A DNA stretch of 64,000 nt, from the NCBI RefSeq assembly GCF_054482525.1, contig NZ_CM137006.1, one strand, 5' to 3'. The notes below the pieces were generated by a model. The model did not search any database, had not been told where the DNA came from, and saw nothing but the letters and a program-made list of their open reading frames with translations. Positions 14,914 through 32,200 of the stretch are shown here, piece after piece. Position 1 is the stretch's first letter, and each line of letters begins with the position of its first letter. Made by a program: the position numbers and the translations under genes.

Positions 14914-15105
14914 GGTTGTCCGTCACCTGATATTTATGATGACGCGACATTACGGTTATCCCAGGCCTTTGACATCTGCCAGTTTCAGCCTTTGTGAGAC
15001 GTTTTCAGAGGAATTTTCACTGCGTTGCAACGCATACATTGGGCATGGAATCGTGTACGCAAAAATGCCCGGTAACCACATGCTTACCGGGCATCAGAAG
15101 GGAGT

Positions 15106-19170
<4,065 letters not shown>

Positions 19171-19442
19171 TGTTATCCCTCTGAAGTTCGTTTTTTACCA
19201 TTTAGCCATAGTAAAAACATGAATTGTTTGATTTCGCGCATATTCGCTCATAATTCGAAAGTGAAACGTGATTTCATGCGTCATTATGAACATTTAACCC
19301 ATCGTATTTAATAATGTGTGCGGTAATTCACATTTAATTTATGAATGTTTTCTTAACATCGCGGCAACTCAAGAAACGGCATGTTCTCCCACTGAATCAG
19401 GCTGTTAATCATAAATAAGACCACGGGCCACGGAGGCTATCA
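19171..19442. promoter_or_regulatory. Divergent glpABC / glpTQ control region
   Basis: 272-bp AT-rich gap between divergently transcribed glpA and glpT; GlpR/CRP/FNR operators expected from established knowledge, individual sites not mapped here. Confidence 0.5.
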
Positions 19443-20801
19443 ATGTTGAGTATTTTTAAACCAGCGCCACACAAAGCGCGCTTACCTGCCGCGGAGATCG
19501 ATCCGACTTATCGTCGATTGCGCTGGCAAATTTTCCTGGGGATATTCTTTGGTTATGCTGCTTACTATTTGGTTCGTAAGAACTTTGCCCTCGCTATGCC
19601 TTATCTGGTCGAGCAGGGATTCTCACGCGGTGATTTAGGTTTTGCCCTTTCGGGGATCTCGATTGCTTATGGATTTTCGAAATTCATCATGGGCTCGGTG
19701 TCGGATCGCTCGAATCCGCGCGTATTCCTGCCCGCAGGTTTGATTCTGGCGGCGGCGGTGATGCTTTTTATGGGCTTTGTGCCGTGGGCGACGTCGAGCA
19801 TTGCGGTGATGTTTGTGCTGCTGTTCCTCTGCGGTTGGTTCCAGGGGATGGGATGGCCGCCGTGCGGTCGTACTATGGTGCACTGGTGGTCGCAGAAAGA
19901 ACGTGGCGGCATTGTGTCAGTGTGGAACTGTGCGCATAACGTCGGTGGTGGTATTCCGCCGCTGCTGTTCCTGCTGGGGATGGCCTGGTTCAATGACTGG
20001 CACGCGGCGCTCTATATGCCCGCTTTCTGCGCCATTCTGGTGGCACTGTTCGCCTTTGCGATGATGCGCGATACCCCGCAATCCTGTGGCCTGCCGCCGA
20101 TCGAAGAGTACAAAAATGATTATCCGGACGACTATAACGAAAAAGCGGAACAGGAGCTGACGGCGAAGCAAATCTTCATGCAGTACGTGCTGCCGAACAA
20201 ACTGCTGTGGTACATCGCTATCGCCAACGTGTTCGTTTATCTGCTGCGTTACGGCATCCTCGACTGGTCACCGACTTATCTGAAAGAGGTGAAACACTTC
20301 GCGCTGGATAAATCCTCCTGGGCCTACTTCTTCTATGAGTATGCGGGCATTCCGGGCACCCTGCTGTGCGGCTGGATGTCGGATAAAGTCTTCCGTGGCA
20401 ACCGTGGGGCCACCGGCGTCTTCTTTATGACACTGGTGACCATCGCGACTATCGTTTACTGGATGAACCCGGCAGGTAACCCAACCGTAGATATGATTTG
20501 TATGATTGTTATCGGCTTCCTGATCTACGGCCCTGTGATGCTGATCGGTCTGCATGCGCTGGAACTGGCACCGAAAAAAGCGGCAGGTACGGCAGCGGGC
20601 TTTACCGGGCTGTTTGGTTACCTGGGCGGTTCGGTGGCGGCGAGCGCGATTGTTGGCTACACAGTGGACTTCTTCGGCTGGGATGGCGGCTTTATGGTAA
20701 TGATTGGCGGCAGCATTCTGGCGGTTATCTTGTTGATTGTTGTGATGATTGGCGAAAAACGTCGCCATCAGGAATTACTGCAAAAACGCAACGGAGGCTA
20801 A
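19443..20801 (+). CDS. glpT: sn-Glycerol-3-phosphate transporter (MFS)
   Basis: 452-aa ORF beginning [48 protein letters not shown]. Confidence 0.92.
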
Positions 20802-20805
20802 TGGC

Positions 20806-21882
20806 ATGAAATTGACGCTGAAAAACCTTAGCATGGCGATCATGATGAGTGGAATGATCATGGGAAGCAGTGCAATGGCGGCGGACAGCAACGAAAAAAT
20901 AGTCATCGCCCATCGCGGTGCCAGTGGATATTTGCCGGAGCATACGCTGCCAGCAAAAGCGATGGCGTATGCGCAGGGAGCGGATTATCTGGAACAAGAT
21001 TTGGTGATGACCAAAGACGACCATCTGGTTGTCCTGCATGACCATTATCTCGATCGTGTTACTGATGTTGCCGATCGTTTCCCGGATCGGGCGCGCAAAG
21101 ACGGTCGTTACTACGCGATAGATTTCACGCTCGATGAAATTAAGTCACTGAAATTTACCGAAGGTTTCGATATTGAAAATGGTAAGAAAGTACAGACTTA
21201 TCCGGGGCGTTTCCCGATGGGTAAATCTGACTTCCGGGTACACACTTTCGAGGAAGAGATTGAATTTGTTCAGGGGTTAAATCACTCTACCGGGAAAAAT
21301 ATCGGTATCTATCCAGAAATTAAAGCGCCGTGGTTCCATCATCAGGAAGGGAAGGATATTGCGGCTAAAACGCTGGAAGTGCTGAAGAAATATGGTTACA
21401 GCGGTAAGGACGACAAAGTTTATTTGCAATGTTTTGATGCCGATGAACTGAAGCGTATTAAGAATGAGCTGGAACCTAAAATGGGCATGGACCTCAATCT
21501 GGTACAGCTGATTGCCTATACCGACTGGAACGAAACTCAGCAGAAACAGCCGGACGGAAGCTGGGTTAATTACAACTACGACTGGATGTTTAAGCCGGGG
21601 GCCATGAAACAGGTGGCGGAATATGCTGATGGTATTGGTCCGGATTATCATATGTTGATTGAGGAGACATCGCAGCCAGGTAATATCAAACTCACTGGCA
21701 TGGTGCAAGATGCTCAGCAGAATAAACTGGTAGTGCATCCTTACACCGTGCGGTCAGATAAGCTGCCTGAATACACTACTGATGTGAATCAGTTATATGA
21801 TGCTCTGTATAACAAAGCGGGTGTAAATGGGCTGTTTACTGATTTCCCTGATAAGGCAGTAAAATTCCTTAATAAAGAGTAA
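20806..21882 (+). CDS. glpQ: Periplasmic glycerophosphodiester phosphodiesterase
   Basis: ORF 20749..21882 contains MKLTLKNLSMAIMMSGMIMGSSAMAADSNEKIVIAHRGASGYLPEHT; start set at MKLTLK (358 aa). Confidence 0.9.
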   Translation: MKLTLKNLSMAIMMSGMIMGSSAMAADSNEKIVIAHRGASGYLPEHTLPAKAMAYAQGADYLEQDLVMTKDDHLVVLHDHYLDRVTDVADRFPDRARKDGRYYAIDFTLDEIKSLKFTEGFDIENGKKVQTYPGRFPMGKSDFRVHTFEEEIEFVQGLNHSTGKNIGIYPEIKAPWFHHQEGKDIAAKTLEVLKKYGYSGKDDKVYLQCFDADELKRIKNELEPKMGMDLNLVQLIAYTDWNETQQKQPDGSWVNYNYDWMFKPGAMKQVAEYADGIGPDYHMLIEETSQPGNIKLTGMVQDAQQNKLVVHPYTVRSDKLPEYTTDVNQLYDALYNKAGVNGLFTDFPDKAVKFLNKE

Positions 21883-22102
21883 TGCTATTGCAGGATGGCG
21901 TTCATGCGCCATCCTCTGCTAAAACGAAATAATGCTACTACCGGTTATTCTTTTCATTAACCGGTGCATCCTGTTAAAAAAGATGCCAACATATTTGCGT
22001 AAAACTCATTCGTTAAGAAAGCTAACACTGGGCATTGTTATTCCTTAAACAGTATGAATTGGGTTCAATAATAAATTGTATTGCAGTTTATACTGTAAAG
22101 TA

Positions 22103-23173
22103 TTATTCGCATTTCGGAAAAGTAAAGAAAATATTAATGTATCTTATTAATTTATTATATTGTTCTTGAGTGAATGCTATTTGCACACCTTCAGGATAAT
22201 ATTCACCAGTAATAACCAGTTGTCCATTGCTGTGTTGTACCATTAAACCTTTTTTTTCCTTTGGATCTTCAAACTTAGAATTATCAAACGTGAAGATGTT
22301 ATTTTCCTGTTTTGAGTAAGCAAAGAAATCTCGTGTATAGCTGAAACTATCATTTATTAATGGTGCTAACTTTTTGTCGGCGATATCGATAAGCTCACCA
22401 CTTAATTTATTGATGTATTTCATTTGGTTCAATTTTTTCTGCGCTTGTACAATTTGCTTGTAGGTATTTTTAATTTCCTTAGAAGAATTCTTGAATTTAT
22501 CATAGCGTTCCACGGAGGATGCGTATTTGTACCATTCTGTATTTTTCTCAGAATGTAGTAGCAGGTCTGTATATTTTTTTTGATCGCTGTAAAGTTGACT
22601 TTTAATACTTTCCTCACTGCTGGTTTTATAAGGTTTATCAGAGCTGTTTATTTTTGAAATGTCTTTTTCTGTCGGTGACTGGACCGTGTTGTGGATATTT
22701 TCTTTTATAACATGTTCATTGATGATGTTAATTGCAGTTTCATATTCATTTAAGTTTATTGTTCTTTGTGAAATAAACCCTTCTTTGCTTTCGACACTCA
22801 AAATACCTTCGTTGTTTTCACCTCGGGTAAAGGTAAGGGTATAGGGTTCATAATCCGCTGCAAATTCATTTTTATACGTTATGACATGTTCGACAAAATG
22901 TCTTATTGGTACGAAACTATAACTGTGAACGTCAATTTTTTGGGTCTTGATACTATCAATTGCATCTGAGGCTTTCGTGAAAAAAGTCAATAAATTAGCT
23001 ATGCTGTCTGCTGAGGTTGATAACCCGTATCTACTTTGAGATATTTTTAGAAACTCATCGCAAAAAATCTCAAGTTTCGCGGTTTGTTGTGATTCTTTGT
23101 AAACTTCTGCTGGTTGCAATTTATTATTTTGTAAAATATTACCTCGAGATAAGTGAATAGATGTATTTGGCAT
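22103..23173 (-). CDS. Orphan hypothetical protein on AT-rich islet (about 356 aa, Lys/Asn/Glu/Tyr-rich, no signal peptide or TM segment evident)
   Basis: Long minus-strand ORF in a conspicuously AT-rich block between glpQ and yfaH; start placed at the ATG (MPNTSIHLSRG...) preceded by AAGGA; the track's longer ORF begins at a TTG 12 codons upstream. Confidence 0.6.
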   Translation of the reverse strand: MPNTSIHLSRGNILQNNKLQPAEVYKESQQTAKLEIFCDEFLKISQSRYGLSTSADSIANLLTFFTKASDAIDSIKTQKIDVHSYSFVPIRHFVEHVITYKNEFAADYEPYTLTFTRGENNEGILSVESKEGFISQRTINLNEYETAINIINEHVIKENIHNTVQSPTEKDISKINSSDKPYKTSSEESIKSQLYSDQKKYTDLLLHSEKNTEWYKYASSVERYDKFKNSSKEIKNTYKQIVQAQKKLNQMKYINKLSGELIDIADKKLAPLINDSFSYTRDFFAYSKQENNIFTFDNSKFEDPKEKKGLMVQHSNGQLVITGEYYPEGVQIAFTQEQYNKLIRYINIFFTFPKCE

Positions 23174-23638
23174 AAATGATTCCTTGTATTGTGAGTTAAC
23201 AAGATACAATTTAATCTTTGCAGAATATATTCACTATCAAATTTAGCTCATTTTATTACGAAGACCTTTACGCATGTTAGAAAGTATCATTATTGTTAAT
23301 AAATACGGTAATAAGTAACAAACAGATATTGATAACTTCCCTGACAAGTTATTAAGTATCCCACTTGAAGATTGAGAATGGCTCCAGAGTAAACTGTGTA
23401 CTGTTCGCCGGAGTGTCATTACTCTCAACAATCGGTTTTGACAGTGAGTCGGGCGCTTCATACCGGTTTCTACCTGGAGTCATTGTCACTTCTCCCAACT
23501 GGATAAATATATATCGCCAATTCACAAAGTGGGCCAAAATCAGGTGAAAACGAATTATTACGCCAGGTAAAGGCTATAGTACAACTAAGTGTGGCGAATC
23601 AGGCAGTCTTGCATTTGTCATCAATCTCATGTCTTACA

Positions 23639-23845
23639 TCAAATTTTTCCACTCACCACGAGTTGTTCCGTACACGTTTGTAGTAAAAACAGTGGACTGC
23701 CTTCTACCGGCTTTTCTTTAGCCAGCAACGAAATCTGTCGATAGAAGGTTGGTTCGAGAGGAACGGAACACAATTCACCTGCAATGGTTTTCAGCGTCAA
23801 CTCTGGTAATAAGGCGATGCCTAATCCCTGTCGAATAAAATTCAT
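23639..23845 (-). pseudogene. yfaH: yfaH: C-terminal remnant of a LysR-family regulator
   Basis: 68-aa ORF MNFIRQGLGIALLPELTLKTIAGELCSVPLEPTFYRQISLLAKEKP... resembles only the C-terminal end of a LysR substrate-binding domain. Confidence 0.55.
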
Positions 23846-24060
23846 CGCTGTATCCGCCTGATTAAATTCACATTTTATCTGCTGGGTGCACTATTAGTGG
23901 TAGTGGCTGGTGGAGTCTATGCGCTGCAAATGAAGGGTAAAAGCGGTGTCGCGCTAGTAGTGGCAAAAGAAATTCATTAATACGACACGTTTCATTAAGA
24001 TTTTTCGCAGGTAACCACCTATAGTCATTGTCGTAAATAAAAAATGACAGGCGATAGGGT

Positions 24061-24711
24061 ATGGCAGTTTCAGCAAAGCACGACGAATTTAATCACTGGT
24101 GGGCAACAGAGGGCGACTGGGTTGAAGAGCCTAACTATCGCCGTAATGGTATGAGCGGGGTGCAATGCGTCGAGCGCAACGGCAAAAAGCTATATGTAAA
24201 GCGCATGACGCATCATCTGTTTCATTCCGTACGTTATCCGTTCGGCCGACCAACGATTGTCCGTGAGGTTGCGGTAATTAAAGAACTGGAACGGGCTGGT
24301 GTCATCGTGCCGAAGATCGTTTTTGGTGAAGCGGTGAAAATTGAGGGGGAATGGCGCGCGTTGCTGGTGACTGAAGATATGGCGGGGTTCATCAGCATTG
24401 CTGACTGGTATGCCCAGCATGCAGTAACGCCCTATTCTGACGAAGTACGGCAAGCCATGTTGAAAGCAGTGGCGCTGGCGTTTAAGAAAATGCATAGCGT
24501 TAATCGTCAGCATGGCTGTTGCTATGTTCGCCATATCTATGTGAAAACAGAAGGTAAGGTAGAAGCTGGATTTCTTGATCTGGAGAAAAGTCGTCGCCGC
24601 TTGCGTCGCGATAAAGCGATTAATCATGACTTCCGCCAGCTGGAAAAATATCTGGAGCCGATCCCCAAAGCGGACTGGGAGCAGGTGAAAGCGTATTACT
24701 ACGCCATGTAA
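24061..24711 (+). CDS. inaA: Acid-inducible kinase-like protein InaA
   Basis: 216-aa ORF beginning MAVSAKHDEFNHWWATEGDWVEEPNYRRNGMSGVQCVERNGKKLYVKRM. Confidence 0.88.
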   Translation: MAVSAKHDEFNHWWATEGDWVEEPNYRRNGMSGVQCVERNGKKLYVKRMTHHLFHSVRYPFGRPTIVREVAVIKELERAGVIVPKIVFGEAVKIEGEWRALLVTEDMAGFISIADWYAQHAVTPYSDEVRQAMLKAVALAFKKMHSVNRQHGCCYVRHIYVKTEGKVEAGFLDLEKSRRRLRRDKAINHDFRQLEKYLEPIPKADWEQVKAYYYAM

Positions 24712-24764
24712 TCGTTGTAGGCCAGATAATACGCGTAAGCGTCGTATCTGGCACTACAACCAAT

Positions 24765-25019
24765 TCACATCTCGATTTCAATATCGCCTTTTGCCCGGCA
24801 ACAACAGGGCAAAATTTCCCCCGGCTGAATAAAGGCTAACGGTTCGGCAATCCAGTCCACCTGGCCTGCAACAAGGCGCGTGCGACAGGAACCGCAGTAA
24901 CCTTCGCGGCACTGGTACTCAACCGCCACATTGTGGGATTCCAGCGCCGCCAGAAGGGAAGGGTGTTCATCCTGGCACAGCAGTTGTGTGCCAGTGATGC
25001 GCAGGGTAATGCGAGCCAT
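24765..25019 (-). CDS. yfaE: 2Fe-2S ferredoxin YfaE (RNR diferric-tyrosyl cofactor maintenance)
   Basis: 84-aa [52 protein letters not shown]..., directly downstream of nrdB. Confidence 0.88.
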   Translation of the reverse strand: MARITLRITGTQLLCQDEHPSLLAALESHNVAVEYQCREGYCGSCRTRLVAGQVDWIAEPLAFIQPGEILPCCCRAKGDIEIEM

Positions 25020-26149
25020 CAGAGCTGGAAGTTACTCAAATCGTCGGTGTCCACTTCCGAGTCAATCTGCCCGACCAGATAAGAACTGACTTCCACTTCC
25101 TGCGGAGCAACCTGCACGTTATCAGACACCAGCCAGGTATTGATCCACGGGATCGGGTTGGAGCGAGTCTGGAACGGCAGATCCAAACCGACTGCCTGCA
25201 TGCGGATATTGGTGATATATTCAACGTACTGGCAGAGAATGTCTTTATTCAGACCAATCATCGAACCGTCACGGAACAGATAATCCGCCCAGTCTTTCTC
25301 TTGCTGTGCCGCCTGGACAAACAGGTCATAGCATTCCTGCTTACATTCTTCGGCAATTTCCGCCATCTCCGGATCATCCGCGCCGCTGCGCAGCAGATTC
25401 AGCATATGCTGAGTACCGGTCAGGTGCAGGGCTTCATCGCGGGCAATCAGGCGAATAATTTTGGCGTTACCTTCCATCAGTTCGCGTTCTGCAAAGGCAA
25501 AGGAACAAGCAAAGCTGACGTAGAAGCGGATCGCTTCCAGCGCGTTAACGCTCATCAGGCAGAGATACAGTTTTTTCTTCAGCTCGCGCAGGCTAACGGT
25601 TACGGTTTTACCGTTAACGGTGTGGGTACCTTCGCCCAGCAGATGCCAGTAGCTGGTCATTTCGATCAGCTCATCGTAATAACTGGAGATCCCTTCCGCA
25701 CGTTTCTGGATCTGCTCGTTGGTGACGATATCATCAAACACAACGGACGGATCGTTAACGATATTACGAATGATATGGGTATAAGAACGAGAGTGAATGG
25801 TTTCTGAGAACGCCCAGGTTTCGACCCAGGTTTCCAGTTCAGGGATCGAGATCAGCGGCAGCAGTGCCACGTTCGGGCTGCGACCCTGAATGGAGTCCAG
25901 CAACGTCTGATATTTCAGGTTGCTGATAAAGATGTGTTTTTCGTGTTCAGGCAGTGCCTGGTAATCGATACGGTCACGAGAAACGTCAACTTCTTCCGGA
26001 CGCCAGAAGAAAGAGAGCTGCTTTTCGATCAGCTTTTCGAAGATGTCATATTTTTGCTGATCGTAGCGAGCCACGTTGACCGGCTGACCAAAGAACATCG
26101 GTTCTTTCAGCTGATCATTTTTCGTCTGTGAAAAGGTGGTATATGCCAT
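25019..26149 (-). CDS. nrdB: Ribonucleoside-diphosphate reductase 1 beta subunit
   Basis: ORF contains [40 protein letters not shown]...; start set at MAYTTF (376 aa). Confidence 0.92.
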
Positions 26150-26164
26150 GAATGTGTCCTGTTG

Positions 26165-26293
26165 GGAGTTTAATGCCGGATAAGGCATTTTACGCCGCAT
26201 CCTGTGCCTGATGCGACGCTGGCGCGTCTTATCAGGCCTACAAACCGAGCCGTAGGCCGGATAAGGCGTTCACGCCGCATCCTGCATCTCAAT
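26165..26293. repeat. REP/BIME palindromic repeats in the nrdA-nrdB gap
   Basis: Two copies of the gccggataaggc...cgccgcatcc / gatgcgacgctggcgcgtcttatcaggcctac REP motif. Confidence 0.7.
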
Positions 26294-26294
26294 A

Positions 26295-28580
26295 TCAGAT
26301 CTTACATGCGCCGCTTTCGCAGCCATCGTCCTGGATTGACGGCACCAGATCGTCTTGTGCGTCTTCAGCACCGTCACGGGTGTTCTGATAATACAGCGTT
26401 TTGACCCCGAATTTGTAGGCGGTGAGCAGGTCTTTCAGCAGTTGCTGCATCGGCACTTTTCCTGACGGGAAGCGTGACGGATCGTAGTTGGTGTTAGCAG
26501 AGATCGACTGATCGATAAATTTCTGCATGATACCCACCAGTTGCAGATAGCCATCGTTACCCGGCATTTCCCACAGCAGTTCATAGGCGTCGTGCAGATG
26601 CTCGTAGTCCGGCACCACCTGGCGCAGAATACCGTCTTTCGACGCTTTGATGCTGACGTAACCACGCGGCGGTTCAATACCGTTAGTGGCGTTAGAGATC
26701 TGCGAAGAGGTCTCGGACGGCATCAGAGCAGAAAGCGTGGAGTTACGCAGGCCGTGCGTTTTGATTGACTCACGCAGTGCTTCCCAGTCGTAATGCAGCG
26801 GCTCATTAGCGATGGCATCCAGATCTTTCTTATAGGTATCGATCGGCAGGATCCCTTTCGCGTAAGTGGTTTCGTTAAACCACGGGCACGCGCCTTGCTC
26901 TTTCGCCAGCTCATTAGAGGCTTTCAGCAGGTAATACTGAATGGCTTCGAAGGTTTTATGCGTCAGGTTGTTGGCGCTGCCGTCGGAGTAGCGTTTACCG
27001 TGCTTCGCCAGGTAGTAAGCGAAGTTGATCACACCAATACCCAGCGTACGACGACCCATCGCTCCACGTTTGGCGGCCGGGATCGGGTAATCCTGATAAT
27101 CCAGCAGCGCGTCGAGTGCGCGTACTGCCAGAATCGCCAGCTCTTCCAGTTCATCCAGGCTATTAATTGCGCCCAGGTTAAAAGCAGACAACGTACACAG
27201 CGCGATTTCACCGTTCTCGTCGTTGACATCATTCAGCGGTTTGGTCGGCAGGGCGATTTCCAGGCACAGGTTAGACTGGCGCACTGGCGCGATGGCCGGA
27301 TCAAACGGGCTATGGGTATTACAGTGGTCAACGTTCTGAATATAGATACGACCGGTAGACGCACGTTCCTGCATCATCAGCGAGAACAGTTCAACGGCTT
27401 TCACACGCTGCTTGCGGATGCTGTCGTCTTTCTCATATTTGGTGTACAGGCGTTCAAACTCTTCCTGATCGGCGAAGAACGCGTCGTACAACCCCGGTAC
27501 GTCGGACGGGCTGAACAGGGTGATATCTTCACCTTTCAGCAGACGGGTATACATCAGTTTGTTGATTTGTACCCCGTAGTCCATATGACGCACGCGGTTG
27601 CCTTCCACCCCACGGTTGTTTTTCAACACCAGCAGGCTTTCAACTTCCAGATGCCACATCGGGTAGAACAGCGTAGCTGCACCGCCACGCACACCGCCCT
27701 GAGAGCAGGATTTCACCGCTGTCTGGAAATGCTTATAGAACGGAATACAACCGGTATGGAACGCTTCGCCACCGCGAATCGGGCTACCCAGCGCACGAAT
27801 ACGCCCGGCGTTGATGCCGATCCCGGCACGCTGGGAAACGTATTTAACAATCGCGCTGGAGGTGGCGTTAATGGAATCCAGGCTGTCGCCGCACTCGATC
27901 AGTACGCAGGAGCTGAACTGACGAGTCGGGGTACGCACGCCGGACATGATTGGCGTCGGCAGCGAAATTTTAAATGTGGAAACCGCGTCGTAAAAACGCT
28001 TCACGTATTGCAGGCGCGTTTCACGCGGGTAGTTCGAGAACAGGCACGCGGCAACCAGAATATAAAGGAACTGGGCGCTTTCGTAGATTTCGCCGGTCAC
28101 ACGGTTCTGCACCAGATATTTGCCTTCCAGCTGCTTAACCGCAGCATAAGAGAAGGTCATATCACGGTCGTGATCGATAAACGTGTCCATCTGCTTGAAC
28201 TCTTCTTCCGTGTAGTCTTCCAGCAGATGATTATCGTATTTGCCCATCTCGACCATTTTCACCACGTGGTCGTACAGCGCAGGCGGCTCAAACTGGCCGT
28301 AGGCTTTTTTACGCAGGTGGAAGATCGCCAGGCGCGCGGCGAGATACTGATAATCCGGCGCATCACGGGAGATCAGGTCTGCGGCAGCCTTGATAATGGT
28401 TTCGTGGATGTCAGAGGTCTTGATACCGTCATAAAACTGAATGTGGGAGCGCAGTTCGACCTGGGAAATCGAAACGTTATGCAGTCCTTCTGCCGCCCAA
28501 TCCAGAACGCGATGGATTTTGTCGAGATTGATGCGCTCTGTGCTACCGTCGCGCTTTGTCACCAGCAGATTCTGATTCAT
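26295..28580 (-). CDS. nrdA: Ribonucleoside-diphosphate reductase 1 alpha subunit
   Basis: 761-aa ORF beginning MNQNLLVTKRDGSTERINLDKIHRVLDWAAEGL (ATP-cone) and ending ...CESGACKI. Confidence 0.95.
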   Translation of the reverse strand: MNQNLLVTKRDGSTERINLDKIHRVLDWAAEGLHNVSISQVELRSHIQFYDGIKTSDIHETIIKAAADLISRDAPDYQYLAARLAIFHLRKKAYGQFEPPALYDHVVKMVEMGKYDNHLLEDYTEEEFKQMDTFIDHDRDMTFSYAAVKQLEGKYLVQNRVTGEIYESAQFLYILVAACLFSNYPRETRLQYVKRFYDAVSTFKISLPTPIMSGVRTPTRQFSSCVLIECGDSLDSINATSSAIVKYVSQRAGIGINAGRIRALGSPIRGGEAFHTGCIPFYKHFQTAVKSCSQGGVRGGAATLFYPMWHLEVESLLVLKNNRGVEGNRVRHMDYGVQINKLMYTRLLKGEDITLFSPSDVPGLYDAFFADQEEFERLYTKYEKDDSIRKQRVKAVELFSLMMQERASTGRIYIQNVDHCNTHSPFDPAIAPVRQSNLCLEIALPTKPLNDVNDENGEIALCTLSAFNLGAINSLDELEELAILAVRALDALLDYQDYPIPAAKRGAMGRRTLGIGVINFAYYLAKHGKRYSDGSANNLTHKTFEAIQYYLLKASNELAKEQGACPWFNETTYAKGILPIDTYKKDLDAIANEPLHYDWEALRESIKTHGLRNSTLSALMPSETSSQISNATNGIEPPRGYVSIKASKDGILRQVVPDYEHLHDAYELLWEMPGNDGYLQLVGIMQKFIDQSISANTNYDPSRFPSGKVPMQQLLKDLLTAYKFGVKTLYYQNTRDGAEDAQDDLVPSIQDDGCESGACKI

Positions 28581-28655
28581 GTATGTCGTACCTGTTTTTG
28601 GAATTCTTCCGCAATAGTTTCATGCAGACTACCTGTAGTGAGGGAAGCTGCTTAG

Positions 28656-28741
28656 AACACTATATATAGGGGGTATGTTTGGGATTCACTGCAAGATAGT
28701 GTGAAAATGGCCCTCTTGCAAGTGCATAACTTTGTGGATAA
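28656..28741 (-). promoter_or_regulatory. nrdAB promoter region: two NrdR boxes and a DnaA box
   Basis: aacactatatatagg (about 28656..28671) and cactgcaagatagtgtg (28687..28703), centres about 32 bp apart; TGTGGATAA (28733..28741) is the complement of TTATCCACA. All lie 75-160 bp upstream of nrdA. Confidence 0.6.
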
Positions 28742-29274
28742 CTCAGGAAGGAAAAAGTGGCTTTCGCGCACCTTAGGTCAGACAAGGTGTCCGGGAAAGT
28801 CAATGGGAGGAGAAAAATTTGTTAAAAATAACTGTTCGGCGATTTCTTGAACGGAAGAATAGGTTAGATAAATTGATGTAGATGGTTTATTAATCTTTTG
28901 GCTAATGATTGCAAAAATTGATCTAAGCACGAGTCATCACATAATCTGATGTATCAGTTATGGTCAATATATAAGCGAATGTAAGCGGTTGTTGATGTCG
29001 AAATGGTTGTTTTCTCTTCGGTTGTTGTTAAATGAGAAGCCATTTTGTTAATTTACCTTATATTATAAGAAAATTATTCATTACTTTAATTCAGTTTAAA
29101 CATAACTGATATCCCTTAAGGTGATTAACTTGAATTATGACGCACTGATATTATTCATGAAATAATAACAAAATAGCCATTGCACCGGGTTGAACAATTT
29201 ACAAAAGAAAAATAACCCATATCGTATAATGCGATTAAATATGCCGTCTTATAGAAAATGATGGTCAGATTAAT

Positions 29275-32200
29275 ATGCGGATTATTTTTCTACGCAAGGA
29301 GTATTTATCTTTACTCCCGTCAATGATTGCATCTCTTTTCTCTGCTAACGGTGTCGCGGCGGCCATTGATTCATGTCAGGGATATGATATCAAAGCGAGT
29401 TGTCACGCCAGCAGGCAAAGCCTTTCAGGCATTACGCAGGACTGGAGCATCGCCGATGGGCAATGGCTGGTTTTTTCGGATATGACCAATAACGCCAGCG
29501 GTGGGGCCGTATTTTTGCAACAAGGAGCGGAGTTTTCTCTATCGCCAGAAAATGAAACTGGAATGACTCTGTTTGCCAATAATACTGTCTCAGGAGAATA
29601 TAATAACGGCGGGGCAATATTTGCTAAAGAAAACTCAACGCTGAATCTTACTAATGTTATTTTTTCCGATAACGTTGCAGGTGGCTATGGTGGCGCAATC
29701 TATTCTTCTGGTACTAACGATACCGGTGTCGTCGATTTAAGTGTCACTAACGCCGTGTTTCGCAATAACATCGCTAATGACGGCAAAGGTGGTGCAATTT
29801 ATACCATCAACAATGACGTCTATTTAAGTGAAGTTATTTTTGACAATAACCAGGCATATACATCAACAAGTTACAGTGATGGCGATGGGGGCGCAATCGA
29901 TGTCACCGATAATAATAGCGATATCACGCATCCGTCAGGTTTCACAATAATAAATAACACCGCATTTACAAATAACACTGCCGAAGGTTATGGCGGGGCA
30001 ATTTATACCAATAGCGTGACGGCTCCCTATCTTATTGATATTTCGATTGATGACAGCTACAGCCAGAACGGCGGCGTGTTAATCGATGAGAACAATAGCG
30101 CGGCAGGTTATGGGGATGGTCCTTCCACTGCGGCGGGCGGCTTTATGTATCTCGGCTTAAGTGAAGTTACCTTTGATATTGCCGACGGAAAAACGCTGGT
30201 TATCGGCAATACAGAGAATGACGGAGTTGTTGACTCTATTGCTGGTACCGGGGTAATCACCAAAACAGGTTCCGGCGATCTGGTACTTAATGCAGATAAC
30301 AATGACTTTACTGGCGAGATGCAGATAGAAAACGGTGAGGTTACCCTGGGTCGCAGCAACTCCCTGATGAATGTCGGAGATACTCATTGCCAGGACGATC
30401 CGCAAGACTGCTACGGTCTGACGATAGGGAGTCTTGATCAGTATCAGAATCAGGCTGAGCTAAACGTTGTCTCGACCCAACAAACTTTTGTGCACGCATT
30501 GACGGGCTTTCAGAATGGCACTTTAAATATCGATGCTGGTGGCAACGTTACTGTTAATCAGGGCAGTTTTGCTGGCACCATCGAAGGTGCTGGTCAGCTC
30601 ACCATTGCGCAAAACGGCAGCTACGTGCTGGCAGGGGCACAGTCGATGGCGCTAACCGGCGATATAGTCGTTGATGATGGTGCGGTGCTTTCACTGGAAG
30701 GCGACGCGGTAGATCTTGCCGCTCTCCAGAACGATCCGCAGTCGATCGTGTTAAACGGCGGCGTGCTTGATCTCTCTGATTTCGCCACCTGGCAGAGCGG
30801 CACATCATACAACGATGGCCTTGCAGTCAGCGGCAGCGGCGGTACGGTTATCGGCAGTCAGGATGTGGTGGATCTCGCAGGGGGCGACAATTTGCATATC
30901 GGCGGCGACGGGAAAGATGGCGTCTACGTGGTGATCGATGCGGGCGACGGGCTGGTTAGCCTGGCAAACAATAATAGTTACCTGGGCACCACGCAAATCG
31001 CTTCCGGTACGCTGGTGGTGAGCGACAACTCGCAGCTTGGCAGTACTGACGAAAACCGTCAGGTGATCTTTACCGATAATCAACAAAGCAGTGCGATGGA
31101 AATTACCGCCGACGTTGACACCCGCTCAGAGACGACAGGTCATGGTCGGGATATTGAAATGCGTGCCGATGGTGAAGTAATGATCGATACAGGCATGGAT
31201 AGCGAGTGGGGCGCACTGATGTCTGACAGCAGCGGGCAACATCAGGATGAGGGTAGCACATTGACTAAAACGGGGGCGGGTACACTGGAGCTGACCGCCA
31301 GCGGTACAACACAGTCAGCGGTACGTGTCGAAGAAGGCACCCTGCAAGGCGATGTTGCGGATATCCTTCCTTATGCTTCGTCGCTGTGGGTCGGTGACGG
31401 GTCAACGTTCGTTACTGGCGCGGATCAGGATATTCAGTCAATTGATGCTACTTCCAGCGGCACTATCGACATCAGCGATGGTACGGTTTTGCGCCTGACC
31501 GGGCAGGATACTTCCGTCGCCCTTAATGCCTCACTGTTTAACGGCGATGGAACGCTGGTGAATGCCACCGATGGCGTGACGTTGACAGGCGAGCTTAATA
31601 CCAACCTTGAAACTGACAGCCTGACTTATCTTTCCGACGTAACAGTTAATGGCAATCTGACCAATACGTCCGGTGCGGTCAGCCTGCAAAATGGCGTCGC
31701 TGGCGACACGCTGACGGTAAACGGTGATTATACCGGCGGTGGTACGCTACTGCTCGATAGCGAATTAAACGGCGATGACTCGGCAAGTGACCAACTGGTG
31801 TTGAACGGTAATACTGCTGGCAACACGACCGTGGTAATTAATCCCATTACGGGTATTGGTGAGCCGACATCTACAGGCATTAAAGTGGTTGATTTCGCAG
31901 CCGATCCAACGCAATTTCAAAACAGTGCGCAGTTCAGTCTGGCGGGCAGCGGCTACGTCAATATGGGAGCGTATGACTACACGCTGGTGGAAGATAACAA
32001 CGACTGGTATCTGCGATCACAAGAAGTAACGCCGCCATCGCCACCTGATCCCGATCCGACTCCCGATCCTGATCCCACACCGGATCCCGATCCAACACCC
32101 GACCCGGAACCTACGCCTGCTTACCAGCCGGTGTTGAATGCCAAAGTTGGTGGATATTTTAATAACCTGCGGGCGGCAAATCAGGCGTTTGTGATGGAGC

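What the first reader, a model, noticed from the sequence alone, without database searches (positions are those of the whole stretch)
21883..23638. AT-rich islet with a single orphan ORF between glpQ and yfaH
About 1.7 kb between the glpQ stop and the yfaH remnant is conspicuously AT-rich compared with the flanking core genes (by eye roughly one-third G+C; not computed). It holds one long minus-strand ORF (22103..23173, about 356 aa) with its own SD. The protein is Lys/Asn/Glu/Tyr-rich, has no evident signal peptide, TM segment or motif I recognise, and, as far as I recall, K-12 has nothing comparable at this position. Composition and position suggest a horizontally acquired cargo gene, with candidates including a phage-defence or abortive-infection protein, a toxin, or a secreted effector. 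This is the least explained coding sequence in the window.
Basis: partly seen in the sequence, partly recalled or inferred. Interest (0 to 1): 0.75.

Follow-up and report, generated by a model that had tools for sequence, protein, structure and literature searches.

The report
Old foreign insert carrying orphan gene

Summary
Window 21916-23630 (1,715 bp, 33.6% G+C against 50.9% for the window) is missing from K-12. It contains a minus-strand ORF at 22103-23173 (356 aa) with an AAGGAA Shine-Dalgarno.

It sits at this one site in 1,052 of 5,426 complete E. coli genomes and in strain TW10509. Its alleles diverge about as much as the flanking core genes, so the insertion is old.

The protein matches nothing in Pfam, NCBIfam, PADLOC, PHROGs, PDB or 1.84 billion representative proteins outside Escherichia.

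Selection keeps the frame open: no nonsense changes against 6.4 expected (P=0.0016), and a compensated frameshift in O157. The amino-acid sequence is barely constrained (dN/dS about 0.6-0.76). About 20% of carriers have an IS1-split copy.

Verdict: an ordinary xenogeneic orphan gene of unknown function. Horizontal origin is supported; the defence, toxin and effector ideas are not.

The parts
21916..23630 (.). The inserted segment (1,715 bp, 33.6% G+C). It lies between ...GCGCCATCCT on the left and GTCT(T/C)ACATCAAATTTT on the right.
   Evidence: Boundaries come from comparing occupied sites with empty sites in K-12 and E. albertii. No terminal inverted repeats or target-site duplication were found.
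22103..23173 (-). [not shown]
   Evidence: The ORF is longer than chance allows. No nonsense substitutions were seen against 6.4-8.3 expected.
23180..23185 (-). Shine-Dalgarno AAGGAA, 6 nt upstream of the ATG at 23173.
   Evidence: Read directly from the sequence. It is unchanged in seven aligned alleles.
23174..23489 (-). Conserved leader upstream of the ORF. It changes at 0.088 substitutions per site, against 0.22-0.26 in the non-coding ends of the insert. The core at 23385-23489 changes at 0.047 per site.
   Evidence: There is no RNA-structure signal (z -0.06 to -0.62) and no Rfam match.
23352..23483 (-). 43-codon upstream ORF (MTPGRNRYEAPDSL...) with GGAG 8 nt before its ATG. It has 46% G+C and is found only in this insert.
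   Evidence: Every substitution seen in it is non-synonymous, so translation is unproven.
22574..22708 (-). Hypervariable linker, codons 156-200, predicted disordered. It changes at 0.385 substitutions per site, and the two main haplotype groups differ at about 27% of nucleotides here.
22542..22581 (-). Two homopolymer runs (T8 at 22574-22581 and T5 at 22542-22546 on the + strand). The O157/O55 lineage carries a -1 change in one and a +1 change in the other, 35 nt apart, which together restore the frame. PCN033 keeps the ancestral frame.
22886..22900 (-). Codons 92-96, HFVEH (an HxxEH motif), in a predicted helix and identical in all 12 alleles.
   Evidence: It is a lead only: Pfam reported no Peptidase_M16 match.
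21892..21915 (.). G+C-rich hairpin (AGGATGGCG / CGCCATCCT) just after the glpQ stop codon. The insert begins at its 3' foot.
   Evidence: Read. The hairpin is conserved in K-12 and E. albertii. A terminator role is inferred; there is no T run and the scan did not call it.
21940..21965 (.). Second hairpin (ACCGGTTA...TAACCGGT) inside the left end of the insert, downstream of the ORF stop codon. It may be the ORF's own terminator, or a relic copy of the glpQ-end hairpin.
   Evidence: Read. Its resemblance to the glpQ end is weak (p about 0.04-0.07).
23639..23887 (-). [not shown]
   Evidence: PGAP annotation of PCN033. The gene is intact in O157.

Best explanation

- an N-terminal helical region followed by an alpha-beta3-alpha domain;
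- a disordered hypervariable linker;
- a long helix;
- a small beta-rich C-terminal domain.

Selection keeps the reading frame open but hardly constrains the residues. The gene is dispensable and is being lost lineage by lineage.

Inferred, not shown:
- Expression is low and conditional.
- Expression comes from read-through of the LysR transcript where that gene is intact, and/or from a weak promoter in the conserved ~310-nt leader.
- The gene is probably H-NS-silenced because of its composition.
- The benefit is small and niche-specific, not housekeeping and not a recognisable defence, toxin or effector module.
For: - **Insertion.** The outgroup loci lack it, and the K-12 empty site is collinear with the E. 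albertii spacer.
- **Foreign composition.** G+C is 0.336 against 0.509, and GC3 is 0.30.
- **No mobility signature.** Searches found none.
- **One site only.** It occurs once per genome, on the chromosome, in 1,052 of 5,426 genomes, and at the same site in strain TW10509.
- **Age.** Allele dS is 0.035-0.14, overlapping the flanking genes' 0.02-0.38.
- **Orphan status.** Only Escherichia sequences of at least 71% identity were found among 5.8 billion clusters and 1.84 billion representatives. One further weak hit (E 1.6e-4, a cadherin-repeat protein) was judged chance.
- **Real gene.** The ORF length is beyond chance. There are 0 nonsense changes against 6.4 expected in alleles not picked for intactness (P=0.0016), and against 8.3 in all 12 alleles. 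O157 carries a compensated -1/+1 frameshift. The ORF outside the linker changes at 0.13 per site, against 0.22-0.26 in the insert's non-coding ends.
- **Weak constraint.** Pairwise dN/dS is about 0.6, against 0.01-0.08 in the flanks. The tree-based omega is 0.76, not different from 1 (p=0.12). Diversity shows no third-position excess.
- **Dispensable.** It is absent from 81% of genomes. Among 60 evenly sampled carriers, 12 are IS1-split and 1 is mostly deleted. The TW10509 copy is frameshifted.
Against: - The simple scan found no sigma-70-like promoter upstream on the ORF strand.
- H-NS silencing and LysR read-through are inferences from composition and geometry only.
- Low constraint together with a hypervariable segment would also fit a protein in an arms race, such as a defence protein or effector.
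- An invariant HxxEH motif hints at a specific activity that this explanation leaves open.
- The alleles L007-L010 were retrieved as full-length proteins, which biases the 12-allele count of intact frames.
Confidence: 0.6

Rival explanations
1. A functionless relic: a foreign gene that no longer does anything and drifts neutrally until it is disrupted or deleted.
For: Omega of 0.76 is not significantly below 1. Diversity has no codon periodicity. The insert is absent from most genomes, about 20% of carriers are IS1-split, and the TW10509 copy is frameshifted. No structure could be predicted with confidence (pLDDT 46.7 and 48.7).
Against: No nonsense substitutions were seen in 120 changes against 6.4 expected (P=0.0016). 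The O157 lineage restored the frame with a second indel. Indels are rarer in the ORF than in the insert's non-coding parts (3 gap columns in 1,073 against 11 in 689). The N-terminal half and the leader change at less than half the rate of the insert's non-coding ends.
Confidence: 0.2
2. [not shown]
Against: There is no similarity to any effector family. No chaperone gene is adjacent. Carriers include LEE-negative strains such as PCN033, avian isolates and an isolate named ST38. Many carriers have lost the LysR gene. In that paper the z3495 phenotype was complemented by z3495 alone. The weak Foldseek rows for SteC fragments (E 0.4-1.6, TM 0.13-0.15) come from a low-confidence model.
Confidence: 0.1
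3. A single-gene anti-phage defence or abortive-infection protein of a family not yet described.
For: It is a strain-variable, AT-rich orphan with relaxed sequence constraint and a hypervariable segment. Many defence genes are orphans.
Against: PADLOC and PHROGs gave no match. The gene stands alone between core metabolic genes, not in a defence island or mobile element. It has stayed at one site and is inherited like the flanks rather than turning over. It has no recognisable enzymatic or sensor domain.
Confidence: 0.07
4. A two-gene toxin-antitoxin-like cassette: the 43-codon upstream ORF together with the 356-aa ORF.
For: The small ORF lies upstream on the same strand, has its own Shine-Dalgarno, and sits in the best-conserved part of the insert.
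Against: The two ORFs are 178 nt apart. Neither matches any family. All changes in the small ORF are non-synonymous. IS1 or frameshift disruption of the large ORF is tolerated, but that does not separate this idea from the others.
Confidence: 0.03

Closest known systems
K-12-absent 'O-island' segments of E. coli O157:H7, for example the adjacent OI-97 (z3494 MFS + z3495 LysR; PMC10819331)
   Different: OI-97 is ancestral DNA that K-12 lost; it is syntenic in E. albertii, Salmonella and Citrobacter. This segment is a true insertion with foreign composition. I could not verify its O-island number.
Xenogeneic AT-rich genes silenced by H-NS in enterobacteria (general knowledge)
   Same: At 32-34% G+C in a 51% genome, strain-variable and with poor codon fit (GC3 0.30), it has the composition H-NS is known to target.
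   Different: H-NS binding was not testable here. The region has fewer sigma-70-like sites than shuffled sequence (2 against 8.9).
Taxonomically restricted orphan (ORFan) genes of Escherichia
   Same: No homologue exists outside the genus despite exhaustive searches. It evolves fast (dN/dS about 0.6-0.76), is dispensable and is often disrupted.
   Different: It is unusually long for an orphan (356 aa) and its frame is clearly maintained. So it is neither a mis-called ORF nor a de novo ORF from random sequence.
M16 'inverzincin' metallopeptidases (pitrilysin, insulin-degrading enzyme), defined by an HxxEH zinc motif (my own knowledge)
   Same: An invariant HFVEH lies in a predicted helix, and conserved Glu residues lie 47-66 residues downstream.
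   Different: There is no Pfam Peptidase_M16 match and no PDB sequence match. The protein is far too small for the M16 architecture. A five-residue motif is expected by chance in roughly 1 in 70 proteins of this composition (my estimate).
SRP9/SRP14-type alpha-beta3-alpha fold
   Different: Sequence identity is 4-10%, the topology is generic, and the model is low-confidence overall (pLDDT 48.7). No functional inference is justified.

Membership tests
Known anti-phage defence systems (PADLOC-DB v2) | Profile match of the protein to a defence-system component | tested here: not met
   0 families at E<=1. PHROGs also gave 0.
Known anti-phage defence systems (PADLOC-DB v2) | Location in a defence island or mobile element, next to other defence or mobility genes | tested here: not met
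   The neighbours are glpQ, the LysR gene, the MFS gene and inaA in every locus examined.
Integrative mobile island | Integrase or transposase gene, flanking direct repeats or terminal inverted repeats, tRNA or other attachment site | tested here: not met
   Only one ORF of at least 100 codons (the 356-aa ORF) lies in the insert. Repeats near the ends are only short AT-rich chance matches. No tRNA lies in 15000-30000. There are no plasmid or phage relatives.
Type III secretion effector | Homology to a known effector family | tested here: not met
   No Pfam or NCBIfam match, and only Escherichia orthologues in the sequence searches.
Type III secretion effector | N-terminal secretion signal and demonstrated T3SS-dependent secretion | not testable with these tools
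   The N-terminus is polar with no acidic residue in the first 22 positions. That is compatible but not diagnostic.
M16 inverzincin metallopeptidase | HxxEH zinc-binding motif | tested here: met
   HFVEH at residues 92-96 in all 12 alleles.
M16 inverzincin metallopeptidase | Profile-level similarity to the Peptidase_M16 domain | tested here: not met
   The Pfam scan reports only a Val_tRNA-synt_C match at E=0.2. A PDB profile search gave 0 hits at E<=10.
Type II toxin-antitoxin pair | Two adjacent co-directional genes, tightly spaced, each matching a toxin or antitoxin family | tested here: not met
   The 43-codon ORF is 178 nt upstream, and neither ORF matches a family.
Xenogeneic (horizontally acquired) islet | Absent from the same site in sister species and in many conspecifics; deviant base composition | tested here: met
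   for distribution. for composition.
Xenogeneic (horizontally acquired) islet | Bound and silenced by H-NS | not testable with these tools
   Inferred from the 32-34% G+C only.

The most novel reading that the evidence does not exclude
The ORF founds an unrecognised protein family with a specific activity. One version: a small zinc-dependent hydrolase built around the invariant HxxEH helix, acting as a secreted effector, toxin or single-gene phage-defence protein. In that reading the hypervariable linker and high dN/dS reflect an arms race rather than decay, and the conserved leader with its 43-codon ORF is a dedicated regulatory switch.
Probability: 0.1. Interest if true: 0.6.

Novelty: new member of a known kind. 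Interest (0 to 1): 0.3.

Why it matters
As it stands, this is one more uncharacterised strain-variable orphan gene in E. coli. Four things could still be of use.

- **A dated insertion.** It is a cleanly dated case of a foreign gene being kept open but barely constrained for the whole history of a species. That is useful for studying how orphan genes persist or decay.
- **Link to a virulence regulator.** It sits inside the transcription unit of a LysR regulator recently tied to EHEC virulence. Mutants of that regulator could therefore have polar effects on it.
- **An annotation error.** RefSeq annotation labels the ancestral-frame allele 'frameshifted', because the reference protein is the O157 allele, which itself carries the compensated frameshift.
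- **OI-97 is not acquired DNA.** The neighbouring 'OI-97', described as laterally acquired, is ancestral DNA that K-12 lost.

If the protein proved to have a defined activity, such as an HxxEH hydrolase, an effector or a defence function, it would define a new family.

Tried and rejected
- **Sequence homology.** Pfam, NCBIfam, PADLOC, PHROGs, PDB by sequence (15) and by profile (93), the 5.8-billion-cluster search (13) and full HMMER against 1.84 billion representatives (17) found nothing outside Escherichia.
- **One weak outside hit.** P0035 (E 1.6e-4) is a cadherin-repeat protein. It matches a short Y-x-L...S-x-[DE]-S-K-x-G hairpin motif five times. I rejected it as repeat-inflated chance.
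- **Species-representative genomes.** The scan returned only a mis-binned 'Collinsella' MAG contig of E. coli DNA.
- **Plasmids and phages.** Protein and distant-DNA searches gave nothing real.
- **Structure.**
  - AF2 on the full length gave pLDDT 46.7, and on residues 1-160 gave 48.7.
  - Foldseek returned only self-hits with TM about 0.25.
  - None of these can be used to infer function.
- **RNA element in the conserved leader.** There is no Rfam hit (52) and folding energies are no better than shuffles (75-77).
- **Homologues of the 43-aa upstream ORF.** Only the same locus turned up, including frameshifted variants from contigs whose neighbouring genes are also fragmented.
- **De novo origin.** Rejected on ORF length.
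- **The three 'stop' changes.** These were artefacts of scoring multi-hit codons stepwise. No allele has an in-frame stop.
- **A duplicated copy of the glpQ end at the insert's left edge.** The resemblance is marginal (p 0.04-0.07) and the question stays open.

Full report
**What is there**

The window matches the E. coli PCN033 chromosome at 100% identity (annotation). Sliding-window G+C falls to 0.30-0.34 between about 21950 and 23450. The flanking glpT/glpQ and inaA/nrdAB genes are at 0.45-0.60.

The minus strand holds an ORF at 22103..23173: ATG start, 356 aa, with a TTG-extended form of 368 aa. AAGGAA sits 6 nt before the ATG.

In DNA of this composition the stop-codon frequency is 0.076 per codon. 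A 356-codon open frame is therefore not chance. The observed stop-free run is 375 codons, against a mean of 79 and a maximum of 223 in 2,000 shuffles; the analytic P is about 2e-9.

The protein is hydrophilic (GRAVY -0.68) with no hydrophobic segment; the highest 19-residue Kyte-Doolittle value is 0.73.

**Exact boundaries and direction of the event**

K-12 has 41 bp between the glpQ stop codon and the yfaH pseudogene. BLAST of K-12 against the window breaks at 21915 and 23627.

Reading the junctions gives this picture:
- Empty sites read ...GCGCCATCCT|GTCTCATATCAAATTTT.
- Occupied sites read ...GCGCCATCCT|CTGCTAAA... on the left and ...CATCAATCTCAT|GTCT(T/C)ACATCAAATTTT on the right.

The insert is therefore 21916-23630 (1,715 bp).

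I used the LysR protein to pull out the locus in outgroups. E. albertii, Salmonella enterica and Citrobacter all have nrdAB-yfaE-MFS-LysR-glpQ. The spacer between the convergent LysR and glpQ genes is 42, 115 and 60 bp respectively, with no ORF. The K-12 spacer is collinear with the E. albertii spacer, base for base across the junction.

So the empty site is the ancestral state and the AT-rich segment is a true insertion. It lies 8 nt after the LysR stop codon and at the 3' foot of the G+C-rich hairpin that follows glpQ. It therefore sits between the LysR gene and what is presumably its terminator, with the ORF on the LysR strand. I infer that where LysR is intact its transcript can run into the insert. 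No terminator-like site was found on that strand.

**No mobility signature**

- The insert has no second ORF of at least 100 codons, so no room for an integrase or transposase gene.
- It has no terminal inverted repeats or target duplication beyond short AT-rich chance matches.
- No tRNA lies nearby.
- Plasmid and phage collections hold no relatives, by protein or distant-DNA search. One 4.9-Mb 'plasmid' record is a mislabelled chromosome, and 50-bp matches to C. difficile phages are composition noise.

**Distribution and locus history**

The insert is present once per genome, always on the chromosome, in 1,052 of 5,426 complete E. coli genomes. A K-12-type uninterrupted junction is present in 3,155 genomes. 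Most of the rest carry larger deletions.

Five configurations exist:
- Insert + LysR + MFS: O157:H7 and L009, and L020-L022.
- Insert + LysR remnant: PCN033, L007, L008, L010, L023, L024 and TW10509.
- Empty site + LysR remnant: K-12.
- Empty site + LysR + MFS: L014.
- glpQ directly next to inaA: L012 and L013.

The LysR/MFS deletion has the same junction in K-12 and PCN033, at a roughly 13-nt direct repeat TTTATCTG(C)TGGG.

Every insert-bearing locus I fetched has it at this same site. That includes TW10509, which to my knowledge is a cryptic clade I Escherichia. A scan of one genome per bacterial species found it in no other species representative. The single hit, a 'Collinsella' MAG contig, is 99% identical to E. 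coli and is mis-binned.

Nucleotide divergence of the ORF between loci is 3-8%, and glpQ diverges by 3-7% between the same loci. ORF dS (0.035-0.14) overlaps the flanks' dS. The insertion is therefore old: after the E. albertii split and at or before E. coli diversification. The alleles are mosaics. For example, PCN033 and L007 are identical over codons 281-356 but differ elsewhere, which points to exchange by homologous recombination.

**Identity in the literature**

**Is it a working gene?**

*Evidence for relaxed constraint:*
- Pairwise dN/dS averages 0.59, against 0.04 for glpQ, 0.08 for inaA and 0.01 for glpT.
- A parsimony count on a 12-allele tree gives 112 non-synonymous and 50 synonymous changes. 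Neutral expectation is 117 and 39.7, so omega is 0.76, with p=0.12 against 1.
- Diversity by codon position is 0.064, 0.044 and 0.055, with no third-position excess.

*Evidence for selection on the frame:*
- No allele has an in-frame stop.
- Seven alleles that were not chosen for being intact carry 120 substitutions. Under neutrality 6.4 of these would create stops; none does (P=0.0016). For all 12 alleles the expectation is 8.3 (P=2e-4).
- The O157/O55 allele has a -1 change in an A8 run and a +1 change in an A5 run 35 nt downstream. These recode 11-12 residues and restore the C-terminal 146 residues.
- Six of the eight other protein clusters aligned across that stretch keep the PCN033 frame, so PCN033 has the ancestral frame.
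- PGAP flags PCN033 and four other ancestral-frame alleles I fetched as 'frameshifted'. The only alleles it leaves unflagged are the O157-type ones, so the flag is evidently an artefact of using the O157 protein as reference.
- Substitutions per site, from a parsimony count on a 14-allele tree, are in the table below. The ORF, and especially its first half and leader, changes about half as fast as the insert's own non-coding DNA.

| Region | Substitutions per site |
|---|---|
| ORF codons 1-155 | 0.094 |
| ORF codons 201-356 | 0.164 |
| Leader 23174-23489 | 0.088 |
| Insert's non-coding ends | 0.22-0.26 |

*Evidence that it is dispensable:*
- In an even sample of 60 carriers, 12 have the ORF split by IS1, apparently one clone, and 1 has most of it deleted.
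- The TW10509 copy has a 1-nt insertion that gives a stop at codon 71.

**Internal anatomy**

Both AF2 runs gave low confidence: pLDDT 46.7 for the full length and 48.7 for residues 1-160. They agree on secondary structure:
- helices at residues 21-104;
- a three-strand meander at 112-140, followed by a helix at 141-156;
- a disordered stretch at 157-185;
- a long helix at about 186-268;
- a small beta-rich C-terminal domain ending in a helix.

Codons 156-200 are hypervariable. They carry 0.385 substitutions per site, and the two main haplotype groups differ at about 27% of nucleotides there, with both dN and dS raised. This could be an old imported segment or diversifying selection. I cannot tell which.

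HFVEH (HxxEH) at residues 92-96 is invariant and lies in a predicted helix. This is the zinc motif of M16 'inverzincins' (my own knowledge). However, no Pfam M16 match was reported at E<=10 and no PDB match, and a five-residue motif can arise by chance.

**The leader**

The 457 nt between the ORF and the end of the insert are not uniform.
- 23174-23351 is 27% G+C, and 23352-23483 is 46%.
- The stretch 23385-23489 is the most conserved part of the whole insert: 5 substitutions against 13.7 expected at the ORF rate (P=0.007, for a window chosen after seeing the data).
- It holds a 43-codon ORF with GGAG 8 nt before its ATG. Gene callers predict it in several assemblies. It has no relatives beyond this locus.
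- All the changes seen in that small ORF are non-synonymous, so coding constraint is not shown.
- There is no Rfam match, and folding is no more stable than for shuffled sequence.
- The simple scan finds no sigma-70-like site upstream of the ORF. It finds fewer such sites in the region than in shuffles: 2 against 8.9 +/- 3.1.

**Interpretation**

The evidence supports an old illegitimate insertion of foreign DNA carrying one real orphan gene. The gene is kept translatable but is nearly free to vary, and it is dispensable. That it is H-NS-silenced and expressed conditionally, by LysR read-through or from a weak promoter of its own, is inference.

The isolated position among core genes and the long residence at a single site argue against a typical defence or mobile cargo gene. 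None of those candidates is excluded, and I give them low probabilities.

Overall this is an ordinary member of the class of strain-variable xenogeneic orphan genes. It is already annotated and has never been studied.

Noticed in passing
window 23639-23980; L002 5755-7975; L015, L016, L017: The LysR + MFS pair published as the laterally acquired 'OI-97' of O157:H7 (PMC10819331) is syntenic in E. albertii, Salmonella and Citrobacter. It is therefore ancestral DNA. K-12 and PCN033 lost it by the same deletion, at a roughly 13-nt direct repeat TTTATCTG(C)TGGG (window about 23874-23886).
   Followed up: partly
window 22103-23173; L001, L020, L021, L023, L024: RefSeq/PGAP marks the ancestral-frame allele of the ORF as a 'frameshifted' pseudogene in PCN033 and the other ancestral-frame alleles I fetched. 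The only alleles it leaves unflagged (WP_001301786.1, WP_001134028.1) are O157-type and carry the compensated -1/+1 frameshift, so its reference protein is evidently the O157 allele. The flagged ORFs are intact at 356 codons.
   Followed up: yes
window 24061-24711 (inaA); L015, L016, L017: inaA is missing from this position in the E. albertii, Salmonella and Citrobacter loci, where yfaE abuts the MFS gene. inaA may therefore be another lineage-specific gain or relocation at this variable junction.
   Followed up: no
L004 (JAIJJM010000334.1): A 3.5-kb contig binned as a Collinsella sp. MAG is 99% identical to the E. coli insert and ORF. It is almost certainly mis-binned E. coli DNA.
   Followed up: partly
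PLSDB record NZ_CP141089.1: A 4.94-Mb record in the plasmid collection carries the insert. It is evidently a chromosome filed as a plasmid.
   Followed up: no
window 21919-21975: The left end of the insert weakly resembles a second, diverged copy of the glpQ stop codon plus hairpin plus CATCCTGT, which is the sequence at the empty-site junction (local alignment p about 0.04-0.07 by shuffling). It may be a relic of how the DNA arrived, or chance.
   Followed up: partly
window 22574-22708: The two main haplotype groups differ at about 27% of nucleotides within codons 156-200, while the rest of the ORF differs by 3-8%. Three versions of this segment exist (PCN033-type, L009-type and L007/L008/TW10509-type). 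Between the first two, dN is 0.148 and dS 0.045 on few sites.
   Followed up: partly
L012, L013 (5116-5317): In genomes where glpQ abuts inaA, the sequence right after the glpQ stop codon is a different hairpin (CCGGATGGCACTTATGTGCTATCCG) from the K-12 and PCN033 one. The glpQ 3' flank therefore exists in at least two diverged versions within E. coli.
   Followed up: no
L021 4257-5135: In strain WP3-W18-ESBL-08 the otherwise full-length LysR gene carries an internal stop. This adds to the picture of repeated decay across the whole locus.
   Followed up: no
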